A DNA stretch of 64,000 nucleotides from the NCBI GenBank assembly GCA_008933805.1, contig WBUH01000002.1, positions 314,696 through 378,695 on the forward strand, read 5' to 3'. Position 1 is the stretch's first letter. Every line of letters begins with the position of its first letter. The notes under the pieces are model-generated. The model saw only the letters and a program-made list of their open reading frames with translations. It was not told the origin of the DNA and ran no database searches. Source of the DNA: Bacteroidota bacterium (GTDB lineage: Bacteria > Bacteroidota > Bacteroidia > UBA8524). Below are positions 46,855-60,629 of this stretch, in pieces. Both the position numbers and the translations under genes were made by a program.

Positions 46855-47208
46855 TCAAATAGGTACACTTGCATAACCGGTTTCAGAAATGATAAGGTGG
46901 TCTAAAATTTCAATGTTTAGATATTTTGCCCCCATCTTTAAGTTGTTTGTTAGGTTTATATCTTCACCGCTTGGGGTTAGGTTCCCTGAAGGATGGTTAT
47001 GCACAAGTATAATCTTACGAATATTTTTTGAAGATGCTAAGTGAAACACGTCTAAGGGTTCTACTCCGGCTTTGTTTAAACTGCCCAATGCTACCAACTC
47101 AATAAATGAGATAACAAGGGTAGGGGTTAACCCGATTACCCAAAAGTGTTCTTTTTGACGGCCTAACCTGTTTTCACGCTTCAGCACCGCTTGCATAATA
47201 GTAAACAC
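46855..47208 (-). CDS. RadC-like JAB/MPN domain protein (short form)
   Basis: HNHPSG JAMM motif and GEDINLTNNL. Typical of the short RadC proteins found on mobile elements. Confidence 0.7.
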   Translation of the reverse strand: MFTIMQAVLKRENRLGRQKEHFWVIGLTPTLVISFIELVALGSLNKAGVEPLDVFHLASSKNIRKIILVHNHPSGNLTPSGEDINLTNNLKMGAKYLNIEILDHLIISETGYASVPI

Positions 47209-47789: not shown

Positions 47790-48464
47790 TTAAAAGTCCA
47801 CTTCTAGTTGGTGTCCGTTTTCTTTAAGCCATTTTTTTGCTTTTAAATAATTGGGGACTTGTATCGAAAGTATATTCCAAAACCTTGGAGTATGGTTATT
47901 TTCCAATAGGTGAACTAATTCATGGACGACAAGATATTCAAGTACATACATAGGAGCTTTTATAATACGCCAATTAAAAATGATATTGTTTTTAGGGGTA
48001 CATGACCCCCAGCGGTATTTCATTTCAGATGTTTTAAACTCATTATATTTTACTCCTAGGTTTTTTGCATAGTTTTTTGCTAATGGTTCTATTTTTTTCT
48101 GAGCTTTATGTAGATACCATTTCTTGAACAACTCGTTTGCTTTTGATTGATTGGTTTTTGATATAAGAAAACGGTGATTAAACACTATATCATTTATCTC
48201 TTCTTCAACTACTAATAGTTGATAGTTTTTTCCTAAGTATAAAAGGGTTTCGCCTGAAATAAACTCCTTGGGTTTATAGTCTAGAGGATATTTTTGTGTG
48301 TGACTAATTTTTTCTTTTATCCACTGGCTTTTTGATTGGATAATAGATTCTATTTTTTGTTGTGAAGTATTAATGGGTGCGCGTACAATAATTTTCCTAT
48401 CACGCTCTACAGTTATGTTTAGCGTTTTTCTTTTACTGTATTTTATTTCATAGTCAAATTGCAT
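47790..48464 (-). CDS. YgjP/DUF45-family metal-dependent hydrolase (Type I R-M associated)
   Basis: HELVHLLENNH HExxH-type motif. Located immediately downstream of hsdR with abutting coordinates. Confidence 0.75.
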   Translation of the reverse strand: MQFDYEIKYSKRKTLNITVERDRKIIVRAPINTSQQKIESIIQSKSQWIKEKISHTQKYPLDYKPKEFISGETLLYLGKNYQLLVVEEEINDIVFNHRFLISKTNQSKANELFKKWYLHKAQKKIEPLAKNYAKNLGVKYNEFKTSEMKYRWGSCTPKNNIIFNWRIIKAPMYVLEYLVVHELVHLLENNHTPRFWNILSIQVPNYLKAKKWLKENGHQLEVDF

Positions 48465-51400
48465 TAGTCAATGATTTTAAAGTGGTTGGTTTTTGCCAAT
48501 TCCATTATTCTTGATATTAATTCGTGTCTTTTTGTGATGATGTTAGGAATTGCCTTAAAATCAGGAGATAAAATGCACTTTTGTAAAAATTCTTTTAGCT
48601 TCAATTGTGCTGGAGGACTATCCCAAAAACCTGTTAGCTTAATTTCGGTTACAACTAAATTAACAATGTGCTGGGTTAGGTTTACTGTAAGTGCAATTTC
48701 TTCTTCGGTAAGGGTACGGTTATCAAATAATTCGGCTTTAAAAATCCGAAAGAATGGCATTTGCTTTTTGCGGTCAAGTCCAAACGTTTCTTCTTTTTCC
48801 CTATTCTTTATTTTTTCGCGCAGTTTTTCTAATTCTTCATAAATGGCTTTCCAGTTGCCCTTAAAGTTTTCTAGTATTTTTTCTAAAGCTTCGGAAAACG
48901 AAGCAAATAATTCAGGGTCTTCGTCTATATTTATGTCAATATAGTGGCGAATTGCATGTTCAACCTCTGCAGCTTTTGTTTTTTCTCTTTTCTTGGTATT
49001 TACCCCTTTCTGAAAATCATCAGCTATTATTGATATGGGGGCAACTGTTTGTTCTATTCCTTTCGATTTTAAATATTCATCAGCAATACTTCTTAGCTTA
49101 GGAGGTATGCCTTTCATGCTAAAGCGTTTATCTCTAAAATGTTTGTTTGCTAATTCGTTAATTTCTGTAAAGGCTTTCCAGTCGTTAAAAAAGTCTAATG
49201 CTTCTTTGCGAGGTATTACATTGTTGAAACAGGTCGTTAGTTTTCTATATAGCTTTATGTATTCAAAGCGAATATCTTCATCATAAAATACATCAAAAAA
49301 AGCATCAGCATCCGCAAGGTCTTCTAAGCCTTGTTTTTTTAGAAATTCCCAAATATCCTTATGTGCTTGTATAAGTTCGTTTAGCTCAGTTTCATCATTA
49401 GAAATACAGTCAATAATTTCTTGTATTTCTTTTTCGGCATAGGTATCAAGTGCCCTTTTTAAGTGGTGGCCTATGCCCACAAAATCAACAATGAAACCTT
49501 TATTTTTTCCTTCAGAACCAATACGGTTTACTCTTGCTATGGTTTGTAATAAATTATGTTCTATAATAACCCTATCAAGATACATTACCTGTTCTATGGG
49601 TGCATCAAAACCTGTTAGCAGCATATTGTTTACTATAATAATACCTACGTTGCCAATAATTGTTGCATCTTCATCATCTGCTTGGCTAAAGGGAAGTTTG
49701 AAACGTTTGATGCTTTTTTTGTGATAGCCGCTATTAGTATATTGTTTTATGTGTGGGGCATCGTTATGGCTGCCTGAAATTATTACGGCGGTTTCTAATT
49801 CTTTTAATAAACTTATATCTACCATCAAGGGGTTGTTTGCCTCAAGGGAGGAAATTTTTTCTTTTAAAGCGTCTTCAATGGCACTTTTATATCTAACTGC
49901 TGCTTCACGGCTATTGGCTACAATTTGTGCTTTAAAACCACCTGTAAATATTTGTTCTACATAATGGTTTACCATGCTGTTGGCTTTTTCTTTTATGGTT
50001 TCAGCGGCTTCTAAATAAGCATCGCGGCTGCCAAAGCCCAATATCTGAAGTCGCTCTATCAACTCATACTCACTAAAAACGTCTTCAAACTTTTTATCCA
50101 TGCCTTTTTTATCAGGAATTTCGGCATTGTGGGTAAAGCCTTGGTATATAATTTCTAGTGTTACGCCATCATCAATGGCTTGGCGCATGGTGTATTTGTC
50201 TATATAATCTTTGTATTTTTTTTCGGTTTTGCCTGTTGGTGTACCTGTAAAACCTATTGAGGTTGCATTGGGCAGGGCTTTATCTAAGTTGGCTGCTAAT
50301 AATGAATATTGTGACCGGTGAGCTTCGTCTGTCATTATTAGTATATTGCTATTATTATTTAGTTCAGGAAATAGTTGCAAGCCTTCTAAATCGTCCCCGT
50401 TTTCCTGAAACTTATGTATCATAGCCATTACTAAATCAGAGTTATCATTGCTAAGCAACTCTTTAAGGCTTTTACCATCGGGTACATTTTTTTTGTTTAT
50501 AAAGTGGGCTACTTTAATAGTAAACCCTATGCTTTGGCCTGTATCAGTAAGTTGTTCTTCCAGTTGTGTTCTATCTGTAACAAATACTATTTTCCACGAT
50601 TGCAGTTTGGGTTTCAATCGCATTTCGCGTACTAAAAACATCATGGTTAGTGATTTGCCCGAACCTTGGGTGTGCCATATAATACCCCCACGTTCTAATG
50701 GGTTTTTGCCTTCTAGTAAACGTTTGGTGGCAATTTTTACTGCTCTAAATTGTTGGTAACGGCCTACTACTTTTATTTTTTGTCCTTTATCGTTTATCTG
50801 AAAAACGGTAAATACTTGTATTATATCTAATAAGTTGCGTAAATCAAGCATACCTGCAACCAGCCTTTGTTGGTCGTTAGGTGATGATTTGCCATGTTCT
50901 AAATCATTAAGAGATTTGGGGTAGGGGTCTGTCCATCTATAAAAATGTTTTTCAATGTTTGTAGTAATTGTTCCAAATTTGGCCTCAGTACGGCATGTGG
51001 TTATTATAAACTGATTATAAAAAAACAGTTCTTTATTCCCCTCGCCATTATACCCCCTTTCTTCTGAATAACGCAACAGTTGGTCTATCGCCTCGGGGAT
51101 TGGTTCTTTTACTTTTGATGATTTTGCCTCTACGACTACCACGGGCAAACCGTTTATAAACAAAACAATATCGGGTAAGATGTGGTGGTCTGTACCGGTT
51201 ACTTTTACTTTAAATTGAGATATGGCAGTAAATATGTTGTTTTGAGGGTTTTCAAAATCAATAAAGCGTACGGTAGGGCTTGGCTCGCCTGTTTGCTCGT
51301 TACGTGATACGGTTGTATTTTCTAGCAGGTAGTGTAATACCTGTTGATTGTTTTCTATCAGGCTGTTTTTAGGAAAGGTGGTTATTTTGCGTATCACCTC

Positions 51401-51664
51401 TTCTATCTGTCCATCGGTTAGGAAGGGGTTTATAGTTTTTAAAGCTGTTTGCAGTTTGGGGAGCAATACTACTTGTGCAAACGATGTACGAAAACTTTGT
51501 TGCGGAGTTTGCTGGTTTTTAAGCTCAATTACTTGGTTGTGTCCTGCATTCCAACCAAGGCTGATAAGTTGCTCTAAAAATGGTTTTTCAACAAAGTTGT
51601 ATTCATCAAGCTTTAGGCTGTTGCCTAAATTGCCGTTATATTTGTCATCGTTGCTTAGTATCAT
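48464..51664 (-). CDS. hsdR: Type I restriction enzyme R subunit
   Basis: 1066 aa with an N-terminal HsdR_N/nuclease region and SF2 helicase motifs (TGSGKS, DEAH). Confidence 0.9.
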   Translation of the reverse strand: MILSNDDKYNGNLGNSLKLDEYNFVEKPFLEQLISLGWNAGHNQVIELKNQQTPQQSFRTSFAQVVLLPKLQTALKTINPFLTDGQIEEVIRKITTFPKNSLIENNQQVLHYLLENTTVSRNEQTGEPSPTVRFIDFENPQNNIFTAISQFKVKVTGTDHHILPDIVLFINGLPVVVVEAKSSKVKEPIPEAIDQLLRYSEERGYNGEGNKELFFYNQFIITTCRTEAKFGTITTNIEKHFYRWTDPYPKSLNDLEHGKSSPNDQQRLVAGMLDLRNLLDIIQVFTVFQINDKGQKIKVVGRYQQFRAVKIATKRLLEGKNPLERGGIIWHTQGSGKSLTMMFLVREMRLKPKLQSWKIVFVTDRTQLEEQLTDTGQSIGFTIKVAHFINKKNVPDGKSLKELLSNDNSDLVMAMIHKFQENGDDLEGLQLFPELNNNSNILIMTDEAHRSQYSLLAANLDKALPNATSIGFTGTPTGKTEKKYKDYIDKYTMRQAIDDGVTLEIIYQGFTHNAEIPDKKGMDKKFEDVFSEYELIERLQILGFGSRDAYLEAAETIKEKANSMVNHYVEQIFTGGFKAQIVANSREAAVRYKSAIEDALKEKISSLEANNPLMVDISLLKELETAVIISGSHNDAPHIKQYTNSGYHKKSIKRFKLPFSQADDEDATIIGNVGIIIVNNMLLTGFDAPIEQVMYLDRVIIEHNLLQTIARVNRIGSEGKNKGFIVDFVGIGHHLKRALDTYAEKEIQEIIDCISNDETELNELIQAHKDIWEFLKKQGLEDLADADAFFDVFYDEDIRFEYIKLYRKLTTCFNNVIPRKEALDFFNDWKAFTEINELANKHFRDKRFSMKGIPPKLRSIADEYLKSKGIEQTVAPISIIADDFQKGVNTKKREKTKAAEVEHAIRHYIDINIDEDPELFASFSEALEKILENFKGNWKAIYEELEKLREKIKNREKEETFGLDRKKQMPFFRIFKAELFDNRTLTEEEIALTVNLTQHIVNLVVTEIKLTGFWDSPPAQLKLKEFLQKCILSPDFKAIPNIITKRHELISRIMELAKTNHFKIID

Positions 51665-54600
51665 GCTTTAAACACCTTATTAATAATCTCGTCTATTTCC
51701 TTTATTGAAATAGCCCCCCTTATACTTCCATCTTCTAGTTTACTTGGTTTATCCTCTGTTATGATAAGAGTACCATTTGTGCCACCACCATCTTGAAAAG
51801 GAAGAATTTTATTTTCAATATACCAATTGTATTTCTCATTCCATCGTTGTTGGTACTCGGTGTTGTGAAGCATGCCGCAATGCTCCCAGTAAAATACTTC
51901 ACCTGTGTTGTCGTTTTCAATTGTAAAATCAGGTAGTCTTTCTACTTCTTTTATTGTGAGTTTCTTTTCATATAGCGGAGATAGATTTTTATCAATAAGC
52001 CGTTGGTATATTAATAATTCACTTTTTGACCTAAGCATTTTCCCATCACTTGCTTGGTGAATTAAGTTTTTCTCTAAGTATTCGCCTTCTACTTCTACCA
52101 ATTCAGGTTTTATAAAAAGATTGGTCATTCTTTTAAGCGCGTCTGATTTTAATGGTGAAGCCAAGCCTTTAATATCAAAAACATCGCCCTGAATTAGCAA
52201 AATTACCTTTTCTTTTTGACGGGTTAGAGCTGTATAAAGCATCTCGCGTGAAAGCAAAAAACAAGGATTAGGAACTACTATAAAAACTTTTCCAAACTCA
52301 CTACCCTGTGCTTTATGCACGGTAAGTGCGTAAGCTAACTCTAATGGCACATTACCTTCTTCGGAAAACTCCCAAGATTTGAAGGTGTATTTAAACCCTT
52401 TTTGAGATGTAAATTCGATTTCAGTGTTTTGTGGACGGCCTGTGAAAGTATGATAAGCTTGCTTGAATTGACCTATTACCATCCCTATTTCACCATTGGC
52501 TATATAGTTCATTGAACCTTCGGGATAAACTTCTTTTCTACGTGAGTTAATTAGATTAATAACTTTATCACCATAAACAATTTGCTCCAGTCCAATAGGT
52601 GCAGGTGTTTTTCCATTTCTAATTTTTGCGAAATCAAGATTGTCTTTTCTAAATAGCTTATGAATTTTCCTATTAATCGCTCTTACACCAAACTCTTTTT
52701 CTCTAATAGGGGATAATATTTGCCAAGATTCAACTTTCTCAACTGCTTCTCTAAAATTAAAAAACCCATAGTCATTAGCTCCCAGTGATTTGTTAAAGGT
52801 ATCAACATCTTCTATAGATTCCATTTTAAGCTCATCAACCAGCACTTTTTTAAACAATTGCTCAAATTCAGCTTCGTTTTTCCAATGCTCTATGCGTAAA
52901 CGTGTTGAATTTGGTGTTGTTATGATATGATTAATGACGTTATCCGCCCCCGGTTCAAGTGTTTCACCGCTAAACCATTCTGCCAGTTGTAAATCTTCGC
53001 CTTTTGAGTTTGATTGCCTTCTATTAATCGTGAGCTCCGTATAACCTTTCCCAACTCTTGGGAAGGTTGTTTCAATTCCATCGGGTTTAAGGTGGTGGAT
53101 GATGTCTAGAAATGGACGACCAGCCCCTATGGGCGGCAATTGGCGATGGTCTCCTACTAAAATAAAACGTTTTACTCCTTTTAAACAATCAAGGGTGGTT
53201 GCCAGCATTTCTTCAGTAAGCATGGATGCTTCATCTAAGATAACTGTTTCATATTGGCCTTCGCAAAAGTTGCTAGAGAAAACATATTGTTGTGTTTCAC
53301 CAATATACCGGCCATAACCGGCAAGAAACTGGGCGATGGTTTTGGCAGTTACCCGTATGTTTTTTGCAACTTCTTCCATACGTACCCGTGCTTTTCCGGT
53401 GGGAGCAAGTAGTAACACTCCATTGTTTTCTACCTCTTTTTGACCTGCTAAGATGGTAAGTAAAGTGGTTTTACCTGTACCGGCCGGGCCAATTAAAACT
53501 GAAAACCTGCTTTCTGCAATTTCTTTTAATACAGCGACTTTTTCGTCACGGGCACTTATTTCAAGGCTATCAGGAGTTCCTTCGGTATGTTTTTTAAGTT
53601 CATTAGCAAGCAAACCTTTCCAATCTGCCTGTAGTTCGAGCCTTTTTGCATTAACCCGTTCATCAACCTTTTGGCTAATAATTTGGCGAGTGTTAGCAAA
53701 ACGTGAGAGTTGATAAGCCCGCTCGCCATCTTTCATCTCTTCTAACGCAACCCCATTGGTAAAGTAATCTTCGGCCAAATCAAAATAGTCACTATTAATA
53801 TTACAAGAAGGAATTATGGCAAGGTTGCGTATTTGGGTAATAAGTTGTTTGCGAGGTAAAAGAGTGTGCCCTTGTAATGCAGCAATTTCTAATTGCCAAA
53901 TAGTTAAGGCACGAACACGGTTATTATCAAATGGGTCATTAAGTACTAATTGGTCAGGCAACAAGGTATCGGGCACATGTTTTAAATACAACCCAAGGTC
54001 TATGGTACTTAATGCAACAGGTGTGGTAGTGAAACGTAAATCTTCATAAATGAGGTAGGGATTTTGTAAATATTCTTCATCCCTGCGGTTAATACCAATA
54101 CGTTCTCTTTCCTCTGTTACAAAAAGAAATTTAGCTTGGTCAATACTTAAATCGAAACGGCTGAGTAGATGCAAAATGTTAATACGGGTAGGGTTAGCCT
54201 TCTCTTTTAAGCGTTGATAGGATTTTCTTGAGGAGAAAGGAATTAATGCTGCTATATCATCGGATAAAATTCCTTGGTGATTTTCTATGGCCTGTTCAAA
54301 AAGATGCCAAGGATTTTCATTATCGCTTTTTAGCCGGTTAATAATTTCGGCGGCTACAAAATGGCCTTTTTCAACGCCAAAGGCGCACAAGGCCGAACCC
54401 ATACCCGGATATGCGCCACGTAATTTTTCTAATTGGGCAATTTCATCATGAATCCATTGAATACTGGCTTGATGGTTTGTACCAATACCTAATTCTTCTG
54501 CCTTTTCTAATGATTTAACACACTCTAACAATACCCTGATGGCGCTATCGTTACTTACGTGTTCTGCTGCATACGAAAACTCAAAACGTTTGTCGTTTGG

Positions 54601-55404
54601 AACTATAACGGCCAATTCAGCAATATCAAAATCAGGGTGCGTTTCTTGATATGTTATGGCATCGTGATAAGGCAGCAGGAACCCATTTTTACCATCTTGG
54701 CGAATGGTGTGCATTACCATATGTTCCCAGTAGGCTGCCCCAAAACGGTTGTTACTGCCATCGTAGGCTTCTGAAGGAATAATCTTATTAATTTTACCAA
54801 CGCCGGCAATTACCCGCCCCGATTCTTCAACAAAGGGAACTTGCTTTGCATAAAAAAACACCAAAGAGGTTTCTTCTTTCAGGTGTTCAAAAAAGCAGTT
54901 TAGCAATGCCTTTTGATTGTTTATTTCTTGCACCCAACTATCGTTGCCGTTTTTTGCCCAATCAAGATGCGGCTCACGGGCTTCGTCAAAGTTTAGTGAA
55001 AAGAGTTCGGTTTTGTCTTTTGCATTTTCTTTCAGCATCCAGTGATAGGGTACTGCTGCGGCAGAAAATGCCGGGAACTGAACTTGTGTTGGCTTCAAAT
55101 GCCCGTGTGTGCCGGGCGAGCTTTCTATATACGGGTGAGATAATGTTTTATAGAATGGGAAGGGTGCCATAAAGGTAGCCCGCTCACCCCAGCATGGGGG
55201 GAGCTGAGCTTCGTTTAAATCTTTAAAAGAACTGCCGGCTAATTCCTGCTCTTGTTCATCGTTACGATTTAGGGCACAGTTTTTTAAAATAAGGCAAGCA
55301 CCATTGGCTTTTGGGTTGCTGCAAATGGTGCCGTTCCATGCGTTATCGTGCCAAGGCACACGCACAGACAGATGTTTTAATTGATAGCGAGGATTGTGTT
55401 TCAT
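51661..55404 (-). CDS. large helicase-nuclease fusion embedded in the Type I R-M operon (unknown N-terminal ~620-aa region + SF1 RecD-like helicase + C-terminal Vsr/DUF559-like PD-(D/E)xK domain)
   Basis: Walker A LIGPAGTGKTT, Walker B ILDEASM, the VGDHRQLPPIG motif and a C-terminal UvrD_C_2 (TVHKAQGSEF). The C-terminus has PDF...GEVFYWEHCG, resembling Vsr/DUF559. Overlaps hsdR by 4 nt and lies 24 bp from hsdS. Confidence 0.65.
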   Translation of the reverse strand: MKHNPRYQLKHLSVRVPWHDNAWNGTICSNPKANGACLILKNCALNRNDEQEQELAGSSFKDLNEAQLPPCWGERATFMAPFPFYKTLSHPYIESSPGTHGHLKPTQVQFPAFSAAAVPYHWMLKENAKDKTELFSLNFDEAREPHLDWAKNGNDSWVQEINNQKALLNCFFEHLKEETSLVFFYAKQVPFVEESGRVIAGVGKINKIIPSEAYDGSNNRFGAAYWEHMVMHTIRQDGKNGFLLPYHDAITYQETHPDFDIAELAVIVPNDKRFEFSYAAEHVSNDSAIRVLLECVKSLEKAEELGIGTNHQASIQWIHDEIAQLEKLRGAYPGMGSALCAFGVEKGHFVAAEIINRLKSDNENPWHLFEQAIENHQGILSDDIAALIPFSSRKSYQRLKEKANPTRINILHLLSRFDLSIDQAKFLFVTEERERIGINRRDEEYLQNPYLIYEDLRFTTTPVALSTIDLGLYLKHVPDTLLPDQLVLNDPFDNNRVRALTIWQLEIAALQGHTLLPRKQLITQIRNLAIIPSCNINSDYFDLAEDYFTNGVALEEMKDGERAYQLSRFANTRQIISQKVDERVNAKRLELQADWKGLLANELKKHTEGTPDSLEISARDEKVAVLKEIAESRFSVLIGPAGTGKTTLLTILAGQKEVENNGVLLLAPTGKARVRMEEVAKNIRVTAKTIAQFLAGYGRYIGETQQYVFSSNFCEGQYETVILDEASMLTEEMLATTLDCLKGVKRFILVGDHRQLPPIGAGRPFLDIIHHLKPDGIETTFPRVGKGYTELTINRRQSNSKGEDLQLAEWFSGETLEPGADNVINHIITTPNSTRLRIEHWKNEAEFEQLFKKVLVDELKMESIEDVDTFNKSLGANDYGFFNFREAVEKVESWQILSPIREKEFGVRAINRKIHKLFRKDNLDFAKIRNGKTPAPIGLEQIVYGDKVINLINSRRKEVYPEGSMNYIANGEIGMVIGQFKQAYHTFTGRPQNTEIEFTSQKGFKYTFKSWEFSEEGNVPLELAYALTVHKAQGSEFGKVFIVVPNPCFLLSREMLYTALTRQKEKVILLIQGDVFDIKGLASPLKSDALKRMTNLFIKPELVEVEGEYLEKNLIHQASDGKMLRSKSELLIYQRLIDKNLSPLYEKKLTIKEVERLPDFTIENDNTGEVFYWEHCGMLHNTEYQQRWNEKYNWYIENKILPFQDGGGTNGTLIITEDKPSKLEDGSIRGAISIKEIDEIINKVFKA

Positions 55405-55427: not shown

Positions 55428-56669
55428 TTATATATTTACCCTTACTTTACCGCTTAATAAATCTTGCATTAAGCCTGTTTTAAGGGATTGGAGTTTAATC
55501 GAATGAGTATTTTGTGTATTTATTAAAAAAATTATTTGTTCAATTTTTTTAATAATTAATTCTTGTTCTAATATACCTTTAGGTACTAAAATAGGTAAAT
55601 TTAAAAGACTTTCTTTATTTAATTTAAATCTACCGGCACCTTGGCGAGTTAGGTGGAAAATTATATCCCGATGTAAAAAAAAATAATGAATCCATTTTGT
55701 GATACACTTATGAGTCCCTTTTAAGATATGTGCATGATTACTTACATTGAATCTTCCCGATGCAAGAATAGTTTGTGCGTGATTTTTCCATTTTAAAAAA
55801 TGGTCTCCGTCTTCGCCAATTAATACAAATGTACCTTCAACCCTGAATGTGTTTATTTTATCTATTATACCTGTTGCTCCATAATAAGGATATGTACCAA
55901 TTATTTTCTCCCTTTCAATGGCAGAAATTGGTTTTCTCAAATTGTTATACAACTCAATACAACTTTTAAGAGGAAAACACTCCCATTCCTTCGGAATCCT
56001 GCCCAGCGGACTGTCTTTAAATTCGTGCGTTTCTTCGCTGCGTATGTTACCGTTTTCGTCTATACCTTTGGTAAGCAGGTCTTGCATCAGGCCTGTTTTT
56101 ACGCGGTTGTATTTGGCTATAAGGGCTTGGGTTTGGGTTATGGCTTCATCCACCTTGCTAAGAATAGCGGCAATGGCTTGTTGCTCAGTTGTGGATTTCG
56201 GGATGGTGAATTCTAACTCTTTTACAATTTTTGCGTTTAAATTACTCTGAGTTGTGTGGGCAGAATGAGCAATAATTGTATTCCTTTTTTCAAGCAATAA
56301 ATAGTATAAAAACTCAAGAGTAATCTTCTTTTCATTGGGAATAATATTAAGTATTGCTTGGTTAGTTGCTAATTCTATTAAATTTATTCTTGGAACTCCA
56401 AGTGTAGCATATATTGAATACAATATTGAATATTCAGGAACTAACCATGCGGACGAACTGTTAAGACCTTCTATGGTTATTTGTTTAATTGTTTGTGATA
56501 CGTATTTATTGGTATTAGTTAAATCTTCGATAGAAGCAAACGGAATGTTCCCATCATAATAAAATGGATTATCGCTTTTTGGAGTGCCTCCTGAACGCAT
56601 TTTCAAAACAAGTTCAATAAACTGTTTCTTATTCCACCCATAAGGAATATTCACTTTGTTTTCTTCCAT
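55428..56669 (-). CDS. hsdS: Type I restriction-modification specificity subunit
   Basis: 413 aa with two TRDs separated and flanked by conserved coiled-coil spacers (TGLMQDLL repeated). Confidence 0.85.
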   Translation of the reverse strand: MEENKVNIPYGWNKKQFIELVLKMRSGGTPKSDNPFYYDGNIPFASIEDLTNTNKYVSQTIKQITIEGLNSSSAWLVPEYSILYSIYATLGVPRINLIELATNQAILNIIPNEKKITLEFLYYLLLEKRNTIIAHSAHTTQSNLNAKIVKELEFTIPKSTTEQQAIAAILSKVDEAITQTQALIAKYNRVKTGLMQDLLTKGIDENGNIRSEETHEFKDSPLGRIPKEWECFPLKSCIELYNNLRKPISAIEREKIIGTYPYYGATGIIDKINTFRVEGTFVLIGEDGDHFLKWKNHAQTILASGRFNVSNHAHILKGTHKCITKWIHYFFLHRDIIFHLTRQGAGRFKLNKESLLNLPILVPKGILEQELIIKKIEQIIFLINTQNTHSIKLQSLKTGLMQDLLSGKVRVNI

Positions 56670-59560
56670 TAATTCAAATAATTTAATTGGGTAAGAAAAT
56701 CGTTTAGTTCTTTCATGGTTTCGTTGCGTTGTGCCTCTATACTTTGCGCAGAAACAAAGTATTTATCGTACAGGTTTTCGCAAGCGGCAATTAGTGCCCG
56801 TGTTTCAGTACTTAGGTAGCGTTGCAGTTGGTTGTTTATTATATCAAAGTGTTTTTTAAGTATCAGTTTTTTTGCATCATCATCGGTAATTATACCGCCT
56901 ATTTCCTCCAACAAAGCATCTAGTTTTTGCATGTGTTTTTGCAGCAGTTCTTTGTCTTTTAGGCGTGCGGTGTAGGCTTTGCTTATTTCTTTAAATTCTT
57001 TTTGGGCGTGTAGTACCTGTGCCAGTTTAAACAGGGTTTCGGCTGTGTTTTCGGTGTTTATTTTCAACTCTTTTTCAAGGGCTGTGGTACTTGCCTTTAT
57101 TTGTTCAAAACTGGCAGTTGTTTTTAAATCTGTTTTAAAGTGTGTTATCAGTCCGGCTATTTGGGCATCCAGTTTGTCAAGTTCAGTATTGGCAGTTTGC
57201 AGCAGTTTTTTGCTTTCTTCTTTTTCATCTTCGGTACCGTAGCGTTTTAGTATTAGTTTTAGTTGCAGTTCGGCCTGTTTTTGCTTAAGGGTGGCTTTTA
57301 TATCCTTTATGGCTTTTTCGGTAGCAGTTATTTTTTTCTCTGCTTCTTGGTAGGGCAGAGCTTCTTTTGGGGTTAGTTTCTCTTTTAGGTAGTAGGCTAT
57401 TTGCTTTTTCAGCTCTTCTTTTACTTTGGCGGTGGTAATGGTTTCGTCTTCTTCGGCTTCCAGTTCCAACAGGTTGGCGGTTTCTTCCACAGTTTCATCC
57501 AACAGGGTTTCTTTTTCAGCTTGTTGGTTTTCTAAGGCTTCAATCTCGGTTTGCTCTTTGGTAAAAAACTCTTCAATCAAATAGTTATCGGGTATAAGAC
57601 TGGGTTCCCATCCGTTTTGCATTATGGTTTTAAGGTCGTATTTTATATTGTCCCACCAGTTTACAAATACCCCTGCTATTTGGTACTTATCCAATACCCC
57701 TACGGCTTCAAACTTTTCTTTAATAGTTTCCAGCAGTTCTTTTCGCACTTTTGGCAGTTTATCACCGCCTGCGGTAACGTATGCTGCAATACTGTCTGAT
57801 ACTTGGTTTTCTTTAACTTTCTCTTTTTGCCCAGCCAGTTTAGAAAAATCTTCTTTGGCCAGTTGCCACCAATCTGCCAGGTGCAAGCCCAAGTGGGTTA
57901 GCGTATCAATAACATTTTTATCGTTATCTATATGGGCTTTTATCTGTGCTTTTTCGGTTATAGCAAACTCTTTGTAACCTTCGTTTTTATCTTTAAATAA
58001 TAGGTGTGCGTTGTAGCCAAATTTTTTGGCCTGCGTATTTTGTATAGTGTTAACTTCAGTAATGGGTATGCCACCTATAAGGTGTGCCTTCACATCTTCG
58101 GGTTCAGGCTCAGGAGTGTTATCTACATACCGTCTTATGTTTAGTGTGTAATCAAAGTCGGCTATGGTTGCTAAATCTACCAGTTTTGAGTACTTAGCCT
58201 CTTCTATTTTGTGGGTAAATACATAATCTATCTTTTCAATATCCTCGGGTCGCAGGTTGTTTTGCTTTTTGCCTTCGGCATATTCTTTATCGGCATTTAT
58301 AAAAAATACTTTGTTTTTTAGCTCATCGGGTTTGTTTTTGTTTAACACCATTATGCAGGCGGGTATGCCTGTACCATAAAACAACTGCGGGGGTAGGCTT
58401 ATAATGCCCTCTATTACATCGGCATTTAGCATGCCTTGGCGTATTTCTTTTTCTTTACCCCCTCTAAACAGCACGCCGTGGGGCATTACCACTACTACTT
58501 TACCTGTTTTTTTGCAACTGGCCAGCATGTGCTGCACAAACATTAAATCGCTTTTTTTGCTTGTTTCAGGAGCAAAACCATACGGGAAGCGAGCAAGGTA
58601 TTTCATTTCGCTGCGGTTATAGTTTTGCGAAAACGGCGGGTTGGCTATTACCCTGTCAAACTGCATTATTTGTCCGTTTTGCTCGTGCAATGGCTCTGTT
58701 AAAGTATCACCAAACTCAATACTATATTTAGTTATATTGTGCAGGATAATATTCATTTTGCAAATGGCAACAACGGTGGGGTCTAGCTCTTGCCCAAAAA
58801 GCTGTATGTTCTCTGCGTTTTGTCCTTGCTCTTCAACATATTGATACGATTGTATTAACATACCCCCCGAACCCGCTGTGGGGTCGTAAATTGTCATTCT
58901 TTCTTCGGGTTTAATTAATTGTACCAACAACCTAACCACCTGATAGGGGGTGTAAAACTGTCCTCCTTTTTTTCCGCTTTCATCCGCAAAATGTTTCAAC
59001 AAGTATTCATAGGCTGCACCCAATAAATCGGGAAATTCAAAGTTTTCATTTATAAGTGCCGGAAACTCGTTAAAGTGGTCAATCATATCCTTCAAGTCCT
59101 TGTTTTTCACAATAGCCTTGCCGTCAACATCTTTATTAAAGTTTACCCTACCTTTAAAAATACCTGTAAGTGTTTCAGGGTTTGCTTCTTCAATAGCATC
59201 CAGTGCTTTATTAAGCATTTGCCCGATATCATTTTGCAGGTGTTTTATAGGAGGGTGTTCGGTTCCGTTTTCATCAACAAAACCTTGATGCCATCGCGCC
59301 CTTAGGGGCACAAAAAAAGTACTGCCATAAGTAACTTTGTCTTCTAATACTTCGTTTAGGGTAGCTTCATCTAAATGAGAATAATCTTTTTTGCGTATTT
59401 GTTCTCGTTTTTGGTCAAACACATCCGACATACGTTTGAGAAACAACATGCCAAAAATAAATTCTTTGTATTCTGATGCATCCATTTTGCCGCGTAAAAT
59501 ATCAGCGGCTTTCATTAAGAAATTTTCTAGTTGGGTTAATTTTATCTTATCGTTCTTCAC
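56669..59560 (-). CDS. hsdM: Type I R-M N6-adenine DNA methyltransferase subunit with long C-terminal coiled-coil extension
   Basis: HsdM_N region, NPPF catalytic motif and AdoMet-binding motif. The 963-aa length includes a ~400-aa Lys/Glu-rich coiled-coil tail not usual for HsdM. Confidence 0.85.
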
Positions 59561-59672: not shown

Positions 59673-60629
59673 TCACCCCCACATCACAGGATAATCATTA
59701 TCAGTGAGTGCCCATCCTGCAACGGGGTCGGGTTTAATTAGCACATCGGCAAGGTCTGCACCCTGTTCCCGCATAGCGGGGGTAGCCCTTTTTTCTAAAT
59801 AGTCGGAAACCGAAATTTGAGTGCGCGGTATGAGTATGCCTGTGGCTTTTTGTTTCCACTTGTGATATTGGTTCACATCCGGAAACAGTACAATCCTTTT
59901 ACCCTTTAGGGGAGCAAACATTTCATTGTGCATGTTTTGTGCCCCACCTGTTGCCAGCCAGTTGAACGTAGGCATAAACACACTTGCTATAATAGCGGTT
60001 TTTTCGCTCTCAACAATGGCTATTGGTTTGTCAGGATAAGAGCTTATCAAATGCTCACCAAACAAACATTGTTTTAAGTTGAAATCAGGTTGTTTAATCA
60101 CACTATGCACCCACGTAATGTAGTTGTGTGGTTCTTTTACACGTTTACCCGTTGCGGGGTTGTACAGCATTATTTTACCTGTGTGTACATTTCCCTGTGC
60201 ATCTACCTGCCAAAATACGGTTGCACCCGGCCAATGTTTTGAGGTTCCTACGGGATATGTTTTTAGTAGCGTGTTGGTTATTTCAACCCCAAACAAGTTG
60301 TTCAGGTAAGTTGCAAAGTGGTTGCTTTGGTAGCTTTTAAGGCTGTTTGCAGCAATACAGGGGGCAATGTAGCTTGTAGTTTTGGATTGTGTTTTAGGCT
60401 TATGGCTAAAACGGTTAGGCGGTGGCAGGCTGCCGTTATCAGCAAAGTATTGTTTGGGGGTGTAGTGGTGGCCGCATTTATCTAAGCGGTTGCATTTTCC
60501 AACGTGGTGCGCAAGGGGTTCACCCGTTTCAATCTCTACATACAAAGTAAACTGGCGGGGCTTGCCGCAGGCAGGGCATTGGTGGCGACTGTGCGCGCCT
60601 TTATAGGGTTGCAATTGATAGCGGTGCAT
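59673..60629 (-). CDS. zinc-ribbon protein, possible primase-like (mobile-element replication)
   Basis: N-terminal C-x2-C...C-x4-C-x-HH zinc-binding cluster resembling a primase zinc finger, and a possible Toprim-like acidic stretch (VESEKTAIIAS). Low certainty. Confidence 0.4.
   Translation of the reverse strand: MHRYQLQPYKGAHSRHQCPACGKPRQFTLYVEIETGEPLAHHVGKCNRLDKCGHHYTPKQYFADNGSLPPPNRFSHKPKTQSKTTSYIAPCIAANSLKSYQSNHFATYLNNLFGVEITNTLLKTYPVGTSKHWPGATVFWQVDAQGNVHTGKIMLYNPATGKRVKEPHNYITWVHSVIKQPDFNLKQCLFGEHLISSYPDKPIAIVESEKTAIIASVFMPTFNWLATGGAQNMHNEMFAPLKGKRIVLFPDVNQYHKWKQKATGILIPRTQISVSDYLEKRATPAMREQGADLADVLIKPDPVAGWALTDNDYPVMWG

What the first reader, a model, noticed from the sequence alone, without database searches (positions are those of the whole stretch)
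51661..55404. 1247-aa helicase-nuclease wedged inside a Type I R-M operon (hsdM-hsdS-X-hsdR)
The four genes are translationally coupled: hsdS/hsdM overlap by 1 nt, X and hsdS are 24 bp apart, and X/hsdR overlap by 4 nt. The hsdS-hsdR slot is where accessory defence genes such as the anticodon nucleases PrrC and RloC are known to sit. X is different: an N-terminal region of about 620 aa with no recognisable family (VRVPWHDNAWNGTICSNP...), an SF1 RecD/AAA_30-like helicase core (GPAGTGKTT, ILDEASM, VGDHRQLPPIG, UvrD_C_2), and a C-terminal PDF...EVFYWEHCG stretch resembling the Vsr/DUF559 PD-(D/E)xK fold. This could be a new R-M-coupled defence or anti-defence effector.
Basis: partly seen in the sequence, partly recalled or inferred. 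Interest (0 to 1): 0.85.

Follow-up and report, generated by a model that had tools for sequence, protein, structure and literature searches.

The report
Catalogued defence-candidate helicase-nuclease inside Type I R-M
The 1247-aa gene wedged between hsdS and hsdR is real and is very probably an anti-phage helicase-nuclease, but its family is already listed in PADLOC as the untested candidate PDC-S68, found by the same "embedded in R-M" reasoning, and most relatives work outside R-M operons.

Summary
In detail: a 1247-aa ORF (51661-55404, minus strand) lies 23 nt after hsdS and overlaps hsdR by 4 nt. A fifth coupled gene, a YgjP-like peptidase, follows hsdR.

X matches the PADLOC model PDC-S68 over its full length (E = 0, 1499 bits). 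PDC-S68 is one of 145 untested "phage defence candidates" that Payne et al. (bioRxiv 2024) derived from genes embedded in Type I R-M, BREX and DISARM. The idea is therefore already published; the function is not tested.

New here:
- **Context:** close relatives (65-80% identity) sit in the same hsdS-hsdR slot in 10 of 14 informative loci, although the host HsdR is only 28-51% identical in most. In 37 distant members none is embedded; the annotated neighbours there include DISARM, DRT1, Type IIG and bSEFIR genes.
- **Tiamat link:** Tiamat-like genes adjoin 14 of 75 family loci versus 0 of 112 controls.

Verdict: an autonomous, portable defence cassette, not an obligate R-M partner. Moderate interest.

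The parts
51661..55404 (-). Gene X: 1247-aa PDC-S68-family helicase-nuclease (stop codon 51661-51663)
   Evidence: ORF list. PADLOC PDLC05065 PDC-S68, E = 0, 1498.7 bits, residues 7-1245 against model 3-1219/1221. More than 2200 homologues of about 1250 aa.
54670..55404 (-). aa 1-245: N-terminal beta-barrel module with three invariant Cys (C28, C37, C71); possible PUA-like (EVE/YTH) reader. No sequence family.
53995..54669 (-). aa 246-470: all-helical domain linking the N-terminal module to the helicase
   Evidence: AF2 secondary structure H246-H472, pLDDT above 90. Conserved RGPxPGLG, LLSRF and NPY blocks. No family match.
52195..53994 (-). aa 471-1070: complete RecD-like SF1B helicase. Walker A GPAGTGKT 639-646 = nt 53467-53490; Walker B DE 724-725; SH3-like 2B YGDKVIN/ANGEIG 944-974; motif VI region HKAQGSEF 1030-1037.
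   Evidence: Family profile against PDB: RecD2 3e1s E 1.1e-48; E. coli RecD E 3e-44, spanning profile 471-1066 and RecD residues 17-585. Pfam AAA_30 and UvrD_C_2. TIGR01448/TIGR01447 hits fall below the equivalog cut-offs. Helicase motif residues are invariant in 71 diverse members.
51664..52068 (-). aa 1113-1247: Vsr/I-Bth0305I-type PD-(D/E)xK nuclease domain. SKSE 1126-1129; PDF 1158-1160 = nt 51925-51933; WEH 1173-1175 = nt 51880-51888.
56669..59560 (-). hsdM (963 aa, GTG start; N6_Mtase + HsdM_N, with a C-terminal extension of about 470 aa)
   Evidence: Pfam, PADLOC MTase_I, TIGR00497
55428..56669 (-). hsdS (413 aa, two target-recognition domains)
   Evidence: Pfam Methylase_S x2; PADLOC Specificity_I
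48464..51664 (-). hsdR (1066 aa)
   Evidence: HSDR_N, SWI2_SNF2, ResIII, T1R_D3; TIGR00348 at 468 bits
47790..48464 (-). YgjP-like metallopeptidase (224 aa), overlapping hsdR by 1 nt; the fifth gene of the coupled unit
   Evidence: Pfam PF01863 E 1e-58. The same gene follows hsdR in L002, L003, L089, L090, L093, L098, L099, L101 and L105.

Best explanation
X is a self-contained, horizontally mobile anti-phage (or anti-MGE) helicase-nuclease of the PADLOC candidate family PDC-S68. Here it is lodged as cargo in the permissive hsdS-hsdR slot of a Type I R-M operon and co-transcribed with it.

Proposed mechanism:
1. The N-terminal 470-aa module acts as the sensor or targeting part. It consists of a beta-barrel with three invariant cysteines and conserved aromatic residues (W18, Y185, W226), followed by a helical domain. 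It would recognise a feature of invading nucleic acid, possibly a modified base, as EVE/YTH/SRA-type readers do in Type IV restriction enzymes. This step is inferred and weakly supported.
2. The RecD-like SF1B motor hydrolyses ATP and translocates 5'->3' on a DNA strand. The motifs are shown to be intact; the polarity is inferred from RecD/RecD2 homology.
3. The C-terminal Vsr-type PD-(D/E)xK domain cleaves the DNA. The fold and the invariant acidic/His residues are shown; the activity is inferred.

In this operon X would give a second layer of defence against phages that escape Type I restriction. It would not need the Hsd proteins to function.
For: **Family identity**
- Full-length PDC-S68 hit, E = 0.
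- The family was defined from genes embedded in Type I R-M, BREX and DISARM.

**Autonomy**
- Distant members (24-50% identity) are never embedded: 0 of 37.
- Where neighbours were annotated, they are defence genes: DRT1a and Type IIG (L009), Type IIG (L028), SEFIR/TIR (L005), DISARM and an integrase on B. cereus megaplasmids.
- X is 75-78% identical across operons whose HsdR is 28-51% identical in six of the eight loci compared (80-81% in the other two), HsdM 34-48% in all but one locus, and YgjP 34-40%.

**The slot holds variable defence cargo**
- bSEFIR, HEC-09 (NYN) and SoFic genes, plus a deaminase-HATPase gene with weaker PADLOC matches, occur beside X in related operons.

**Active enzyme**
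- Walker A/B, Q755, Q1033 and R1062 are invariant, as are E1129, E1174 and H1175; D1159 is at least 90% conserved across 71 sequences at 32-59% identity.

**Sensor lead**

**Precedent**
- Helicase plus C-terminal Vsr-type nuclease fusions recur in defence systems: CoCoNuT III-B CnuH, ARMADA YprA.

**Low-GC island**
- The locus lies beside RadC, a primase-like gene and a PstI-type R-M.
Against: - No experiment exists. No paper in the searchable library names PDC-S68, and Payne et al. call the PDCs untested.
- In the close clade the embedding is strikingly consistent (10 of 14) and translationally tight, so a functional link with Hsd proteins in this clade is not excluded.
- Hsd detection in distant loci used only this window's Hsd proteins as phmmer queries, so it may miss divergent R-M genes.
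Confidence: 0.6

Rival explanations
1. R-M guardian of the PrrC/RloC type. X is held latent by contact with the Type I enzyme. It is unleashed when a phage anti-restriction factor (Ocr/Stp-like) disables HsdMSR, and then degrades nucleic acid as an abortive back-up.
For: Same slot as prrC. Tight translational coupling. 10 of 14 close-clade loci are embedded in the same position.
Against: - 0 of 37 distant family members are embedded, and many stand alone on their own transcription unit.
- The X cassette is conserved while the Hsd partners diverge to 28-51% identity. That is hard to reconcile with a co-evolving protein-protein interface.
- There is no PrrC/RloC domain similarity.
Confidence: 0.15
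2. Accessory processing enzyme of the Type I system. It would be a dedicated RecBCD-like 'degradasome' that loads on the double-strand breaks made by HsdR and destroys the cut DNA, enhancing restriction.
For: RecD-like motor plus nuclease. Co-transcription with hsdR.
Against: Same context argument as above. It does not explain the large, conserved, family-specific N-terminal module. It does not explain the recurrent pairing with Tiamat-like genes instead of R-M.
Confidence: 0.1
3. Not defence. X would be a replication, conjugation or repair helicase of the integrative element that carries the island (TraA/RecD-like), or a phage/MGE anti-defence factor.
For: Weak helicase-core hits to TraA/TraI relaxase-helicases. 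A primase-like DUF6371 gene and an AAA_25 gene lie nearby. 21 full-length members lie on IMG/VR contigs. 25 plasmid records carry a relative.
Against: - No relaxase or replication-initiator domain. The hits to TraA cover only the helicase core and fall far below the cut-offs.
- Where neighbours were annotated they are mostly defence genes, not transfer genes.
- Only 2 of 50,697 phage records carry a relative.
- 23 of the 25 plasmids are typed non-mobilizable.
Confidence: 0.06

Closest known systems
PADLOC PDC-S68 (phage defence candidate, Payne, Hughes, Fineran & Jackson, bioRxiv 2024, doi 10.1101/2024.01.29.577857)
   Same: Full-length profile match, E = 0. Single gene. The family was defined from genes embedded in Type I R-M, BREX or DISARM, which is exactly this arrangement.
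   Different: Nothing differs in kind. The family has no tested function, no described domain anatomy and no mechanism. The domain dissection, context statistics and Tiamat link given here are additions.
RecD2 / RecD (SF1B 5'->3' helicases; PDB 3e1s, 1w36_D)
   Same: Residues 471-1070 align to essentially the whole of RecD, including the N-terminal domain and the SH3-like 2B domain. All motor motifs are present.
   Different: Scores fall far below the NCBIfam equivalog cut-offs (210 vs 500 bits; 157.5 vs 310.15 bits). X also has a 470-aa N-terminal module and a C-terminal nuclease that RecD and RecD2 lack. No RecB or RecC partners.
Vsr / DUF559 / I-Bth0305I (EDxHD) clade of PD-(D/E)xK nucleases
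   Different: No Pfam-level sequence match. Fused to a helicase. The residue-by-residue correspondence to the Vsr catalytic residues is my inference, not a computed superposition.
SauUSI-type and PvuRts1I/AbaSI-type modification-dependent (Type IV) restriction enzymes
   Different: Different motor (SF1B rather than SF2), different nuclease from SauUSI (Vsr-like rather than PLD), and different domain order. Modification dependence is untested.
PrrC / RloC anticodon nucleases
   Same: Same genomic slot between hsdS and hsdR.
   Different: No shared domains: no PrrC hit in PADLOC. The predicted effector is a DNA nuclease, not an anticodon nuclease. The family is mostly not R-M-embedded.
Helicase-Vsr fusions in CoCoNuT type III-B (CnuH) and ARMADA (YprA family)
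   Same: A motor with a C-terminal Vsr-type nuclease as the defence effector.
   Different: Those motors are UPF1-like SF1 or YprA SF2, with McrBC-type or DISARM-like partners. X has a RecD-like motor, a unique N-terminus and usually no fixed partner.

Membership tests
PADLOC PDC-S68 | Full-length match to the family HMM | tested here: met
   PDLC05065 E = 0, 1498.7 bits, residues 7-1245 against model 3-1219/1221. Sister models PDLC05066 (565 bits) and PDLC05064 (479 bits).
PADLOC PDC-S68 | Single-gene cassette found embedded in Type I R-M, BREX or DISARM | tested here: met
   hsdM-hsdS-X-hsdR in the window and in 10 of 14 informative close-clade loci.
PADLOC PDC-S68 | Demonstrated anti-phage activity | not testable with these tools
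   Payne et al. describe the 145 PDCs as untested. No paper names PDC-S68.
RecD / RecD2 orthologue | Score above the NCBIfam equivalog cut-off | tested here: not met
   TIGR01448: 210 bits against a cut-off of 500. TIGR01447: 157.5 against 310.15.
SF1B RecD-like helicase superfamily | Walker A/B, motifs III-VI and an SH3-like 2B domain, conserved across the family | tested here: met
   Invariant G639-K645, D724, Q755, R796, Q1033-S1035 and R1062; E725 at least 90% conserved. Profile alignment to the whole of RecD, E 3e-44.
Vsr-like PD-(D/E)xK nuclease clade | Fold similarity to Vsr / I-Bth0305I / DUF559 structures | tested here: met
Vsr-like PD-(D/E)xK nuclease clade | Conserved catalytic acidic/His residues | tested here: met
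   E1129, E1174 and H1175 invariant; D1159 at least 90% conserved in 71 diverse members. Equivalence to Vsr E25/D51/H64 is inferred from motif order.
Vsr-like PD-(D/E)xK nuclease clade | Sequence-profile match to Pfam Vsr or DUF559 | tested here: not met
   No Pfam hit beyond residue 1070.
PUA-like readers (EVE / YTH / SRA) | Significant fold or sequence similarity of the N-terminal barrel | tested here: inconclusive
PrrC / RloC | ABC-type ATPase plus C-terminal anticodon-nuclease domain | tested here: not met
   No PrrC or RloC model among the 21 PADLOC hits. The ATPase is SF1B.
Type IV (modification-dependent) restriction enzyme | Cleavage dependent on modified bases | not testable with these tools
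   Only the architecture analogy and the weak reader-fold lead are available.

The most novel reading that the evidence does not exclude
X represents an undescribed class of translocating, Type IV-like restriction enzyme. A previously unrecognised N-terminal sensor (a divergent PUA-like barrel with a 3-Cys metal site and a helical domain, absent from Pfam) would read modified or otherwise foreign DNA and license a RecD-type motor with a Vsr-type nuclease. In a subset of genomes the enzyme would act together with Tiamat-like giant ATPases as a two-gene system.
Probability: 0.25. Interest if true: 0.7.

Novelty: new member of a known kind. Interest (0 to 1): 0.45.

Why it matters
The family is large: more than 2200 clusters at 90% identity and about 275 clusters at 50% identity with strong N-terminal matches. 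It spans most bacterial phyla and at least one archaeon, yet it has no tested function and no name beyond a catalogue number.

If it is a motor-driven nuclease with a new sensor domain, it would add a widespread single-protein defence system. It would also give a tractable case for two open questions: why defence genes nest in the hsdS-hsdR slot, and what Tiamat does.

For this scan the practical message is different. The finding is correct, but its central idea has been published and is already searchable with PADLOC.

Tried and rejected
- **Literature by name:** 'PDC-S68' gives 0 papers. The supplementary tables of Payne et al. are truncated as stored and do not contain S68.
- **Fold search against AlphaFold DB:** the library is not installed. 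Foldseek against PDB was used instead and gave no significant hit.
- **N-terminus by sequence:** Pfam at E<=10 on 22 diverse N-terminal pieces found nothing. A PDB profile search of the N-terminus returned only chance hits at E 1.3.
- **Promoter and terminator scan of the operon:** counts were at shuffle level, so it was uninformative.
- **tRNA scan for an integration site:** none in the window.
- **Considered and rejected:**
  - Relaxase/TraA helicase: only core-helicase similarity.
  - Nhi/AbiO, Mokosh or Gabija membership: helicase-only hits, E 1e-7 or worse.
  - CRISPR type IV-D RecD: helicase-only, with no cas context.
Full report

Yes. The minus strand carries a 1247-aa ORF at 51661-55404. 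Reading the junctions directly:
- hsdS ends with TAA at 55430-55428, followed by a 23-nt spacer and the ATG of X.
- The stop of X and the start of hsdR share ATGA, a 4-nt overlap.
- hsdM and hsdS overlap by one base.
- hsdR overlaps a fifth gene, a YgjP-like metallopeptidase (47790-48464), by one base.

The neighbours are unambiguous HsdM, HsdS and HsdR (Pfam, PADLOC, NCBIfam). Pfam sees only the helicase core (AAA_30 624-772, UvrD_C_2 1023-1070) and nothing in 1-620 or after 1070.

**2. What family is it?**

The decisive result is that X matches the PADLOC model PDLC05065, 'PDC-S68', end to end: E = 0, 1498.7 bits, residues 7-1245 against model positions 3-1219 of 1221.

PDC stands for 'phage defence candidate'. 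Payne, Hughes, Fineran and Jackson (bioRxiv 2024, doi 10.1101/2024.01.29.577857) collected genes embedded in BREX, DISARM and Type I R-M operons. They filtered out mobilome and housekeeping functions and released 145 untested candidates through PADLOC. They cite PrrC as the archetype of a system almost exclusively embedded in Type I R-M.

No paper in the searchable library mentions PDC-S68 by name, and the stored supplementary tables are truncated before it. I therefore found no description of its domains, contexts or function.

**3. Size and spread of the family**

- A word-indexed search returned more than 2200 clusters. The best 120 were 73-81% identical and all about 1247 aa, mostly Bacteroidota but also Deltaproteobacteria and Pseudothermotoga.
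- An exhaustive HMMER scan with residues 1-500 found 1354 cluster representatives at 50% identity (275 with E <= 1e-30). In nearly all full-length hits the N-terminal module sits at the N-terminus of a 1220-1280-aa protein. The module is essentially confined to this architecture.
- A few variants add a C-terminal Schlafen/AlbA_2 domain.
- Genome scans found full-length members in Planctomycetota, Nitrospirota, Chloroflexota, Spirochaetota, Actinomycetota, Alpha- and Gammaproteobacteria, Acidobacteriota, Bacillota and one archaeon, Ca. Methanosuratincola.
- 25 plasmid records carry a relative, 15 of them B. cereus megaplasmids.
- Curated phage genomes almost never carry it: 2 small metagenomic records of 50,697.

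**4. Anatomy**

*Helicase.* A profile of 71 diverse members (32-59% identity) aligns residues 471-1066 to virtually the whole of E. coli RecD (E 3e-44), and 483-766 plus a second stretch to D. radiodurans RecD2 (E 1e-48).
- The motor is therefore a complete RecD-like SF1B helicase, including the RecD N-terminal domain and the SH3-like 2B domain.
- The truly unassigned part is 1-470, not 1-620.
- The scores are far below the NCBIfam equivalog thresholds, so X is not a RecD or RecD2 orthologue.
- All motor motifs are conserved: Walker A, D724 of Walker B, Q755, R796, Q1033-S1035 and R1062 are invariant, and E725 is at least 90% conserved.

- then Can2, TnsA, AbaSI, Hjc and many Type II enzymes.

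E1129, F1160, E1174 and H1175 are invariant. S1126, K1127, S1128, D1159, W1173 and G1177 are at least 90% conserved. The order SxxE ... PDF ... EHxG parallels TxxE ... PDF ... THG of Vsr. That last correspondence is my inference from motif order, not a computed superposition. The nuclease is predicted to be active.

*N-terminus.* The model of 1-500 is confident (pLDDT 91.2, pTM 0.90). It shows a beta-barrel-like module (about 1-245) followed by an all-helical domain (246-470).
- No Pfam family matches any of 22 diverse N-terminal pieces, even at E <= 10.
- No PDB sequence matches the profile.
- Foldseek independently ranks the EVE-type MJECL36 first, PH1033 fourth and the MspJI restriction enzyme seventh. 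None is significant: best E 0.24.

I therefore treat 'divergent PUA-like reader' as a lead, not a result. Across all 22 sequences, including the archaeal one, R15, W18, C28, N34, C37, C71, S180, Y185, P190, W226 and P245 are invariant. Three invariant cysteines suggest a metal site, and the aromatic residues would suit a base-binding pocket. Both points are inference.

**5. Genomic context**

*Close clade (65-80% identity to X).*
- 10 of 14 loci with at least 1.5 kb on both sides are embedded as hsdM-hsdS-(0-1 gene)-X-(0-1 gene)-hsdR, usually followed by the YgjP-like gene.
- 15 of 21 loci have HsdS or HsdM upstream.
- 12 of 18 loci have HsdR downstream.

*The host operons are not the same operon.* X stays 75-78% identical, while HsdR is only 28-51% identical in six of the eight loci where it could be compared (80-81% in the other two). 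HsdM is 34-48% in all but one locus, and YgjP is 34-40%. X therefore behaves as a conserved cassette that has come to occupy the same slot in divergent Type I systems.

*The slot collects defence cargo.* Directly beside X, related operons carry bSEFIR (L090, L105), HEC-09 NYN (L106, L107; Payne et al. report confirming anti-phage activity for their Hma-embedded candidate systems), SoFic (L093), a deaminase-HATPase protein (L097) and an unassigned HExxH protein (L091, L101, L102, L112).

*Distant members (24-50% identity).* None of 37 informative loci is embedded, and only 7 have any detectable Hsd homologue within the flanks. One caveat applies: detection used this window's Hsd proteins as phmmer queries. 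Annotated neighbours at some of these loci include:
- DRT1a plus a Type IIG enzyme (L009);
- a Type IIG enzyme (L028);
- a SEFIR/TIR protein and giant helicases (L005, which is itself a close-clade locus);
- an integrase and DISARM drmA/drmB on B. cereus megaplasmids.

Equally, the family is not an obligate R-M partner.

**6. An unexpected association with Tiamat-like genes**

A giant protein with a Tiamat (TmtA)-like sacsin/HATPase N-terminus often lies immediately next to X, usually downstream on the same strand. It is often fused to a Mokosh-like SF1 or an SF2 helicase. PADLOC confirmed TmtA similarity in L007, L015, L018, L019, L025, L027, L095, L113 and L129.

Using only the N-terminal 800 aa as queries, 14 of 75 family loci contain such a gene. 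None of 112 control loci does; the controls are generic RecD-like helicases recovered by the same scans (Fisher p = 1.3e-6). Two caveats apply: six of the queries come from the family loci themselves, and some loci are related to each other.

The association spans X identities from 26% to 77%. In Pedobacter (L007) both genes sit together between hsdS and hsdR. The window itself has no such gene.

**7. Most likely mechanism**

X is best read as an autonomous motor-nuclease defence effector:
1. An N-terminal sensor. Its role is inferred and the fold lead is weak.
2. A RecD-type 5'->3' motor. The intact motifs are shown; the polarity is inferred from homology.
3. A Vsr-type nuclease. The fold and conserved residues are shown; the activity is inferred.

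The design resembles motor-coupled or reader-coupled Type IV restriction enzymes (SauUSI, AbaSI/PvuRts1I; my own knowledge of those enzymes). It also resembles other helicase-Vsr defence fusions: CoCoNuT III-B CnuH and ARMADA YprA.

In this operon X would supply a second layer behind Type I restriction. The PrrC-like 'guardian' reading and a 'post-cleavage degradasome' reading remain possible for the embedded clade. Both are disfavoured by the family-wide context and by the mismatch between conservation of X and conservation of the Hsd proteins.

**8. The local setting**

The operon lies in a low-GC stretch: 33-40% against 42-46% upstream. Per gene, GC runs from 30.8% to 39.3%, against 46.7% for the adjacent Mur ligase gene. 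The stretch begins just after a Mur ligase gene and contains:
- RadC;
- the five-gene unit;
- a DUF6371/zinc-ribbon primase-like gene;
- an AAA_25 gene;
- a BsuBI/PstI-type restriction enzyme with a C5-methyltransferase.

This is a defence island, probably on an integrated element, that runs off the end of the window.

**9. Verdict**

- The defence reading and the Vsr-like nuclease call are right.
- 'New' and 'R-M-coupled' are not.

X is a new member of a catalogued but unstudied candidate family. The residual interest lies in four things: the sequence-orphan N-terminal module, the portability of the cassette into the hsdS-hsdR slot, the Tiamat link, and the absence of any experimental test.

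Noticed in passing
L007:13762-20658, L015:13827-18605, L018:13713-18386, L019:5088-9965(-), L025:3682-7923, L027:7793-13012, L095:7110-13094, L113:2473-5724, L129:2413-5982: Giant Tiamat (TmtA)-like sacsin/HATPase proteins lie directly beside PDC-S68-family genes. They are often fused to a Mokosh-like SF1 or an SF2 helicase. They occur in 14 of 75 family loci against 0 of 112 control loci (Fisher p 1.3e-6), across X identities of 26-77%. This may be a two-gene module. The window itself has no such gene.
   Followed up: partly
window 47790-48464 (-): A YgjP-like (DUF45/WLM-type) metallopeptidase gene overlaps the hsdR stop by 1 nt. The same gene follows hsdR in at least nine related operons (L002, L003, L089, L090, L093, L098, L099, L101, L105), although it is only 34-40% identical. 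It looks like a conserved fifth component of this Type I subtype, of unknown role.
   Followed up: partly
L090:4793-5983, L105:4793-5983, L106:1987-2616, L107:782-1411, L093:3530-4606, L097:8191-9672, L101:4679-5995, L091:540-1901: In related operons the hsdS-hsdR slot carries further cargo next to X. Known systems: bSEFIR, HEC-09 (NYN) and SoFic. Also a cytidine-deaminase/HATPase_c_4 protein. Also a recurrent protein of about 440-450 aa with an HEYxH motif and no Pfam or PADLOC match; this last one is itself an uncatalogued embedded candidate.
   Followed up: partly
window 56669-59560 (-): HsdM is 963 aa. The methyltransferase ends near residue 490. The remaining 470 aa or so are a charged region, probably coiled-coil, that matches long PADLOC MTase_I models (PDLC03031) but no Pfam domain.
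   Followed up: no
window 46855-47208, 59673-60629, 61386-62426, 62530-63951: The low-GC island also holds a RadC-like JAB gene, a DUF6371 + zinc-ribbon (PG0870-like) primase-like gene, an AAA_25 (RepA/DnaB-loader-like) gene, and a BsuBI/PstI-type restriction endonuclease with the 3' end of a C5 cytosine methyltransferase. This suggests an integrated mobile element whose far end lies beyond the window.
   Followed up: no
L002 (contig CDRVHD010000011.1, assembly GCA_977070945.1): This contig is labelled Pseudomonas shirazensis, yet it carries SusD/TonB-dependent receptor genes typical of Bacteroidota next to the operon. The taxonomic label of that assembly contig is probably wrong (contamination).
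   Followed up: no
P0123, P0379 (about 1406 aa family members): Some family members carry an extra C-terminal Schlafen AlbA_2 domain after the Vsr-like nuclease. Others (P0127, P0131, P0203; 1493-1562 aa) have unassigned extra sequence beyond the usual length, which I did not locate.
   Followed up: no
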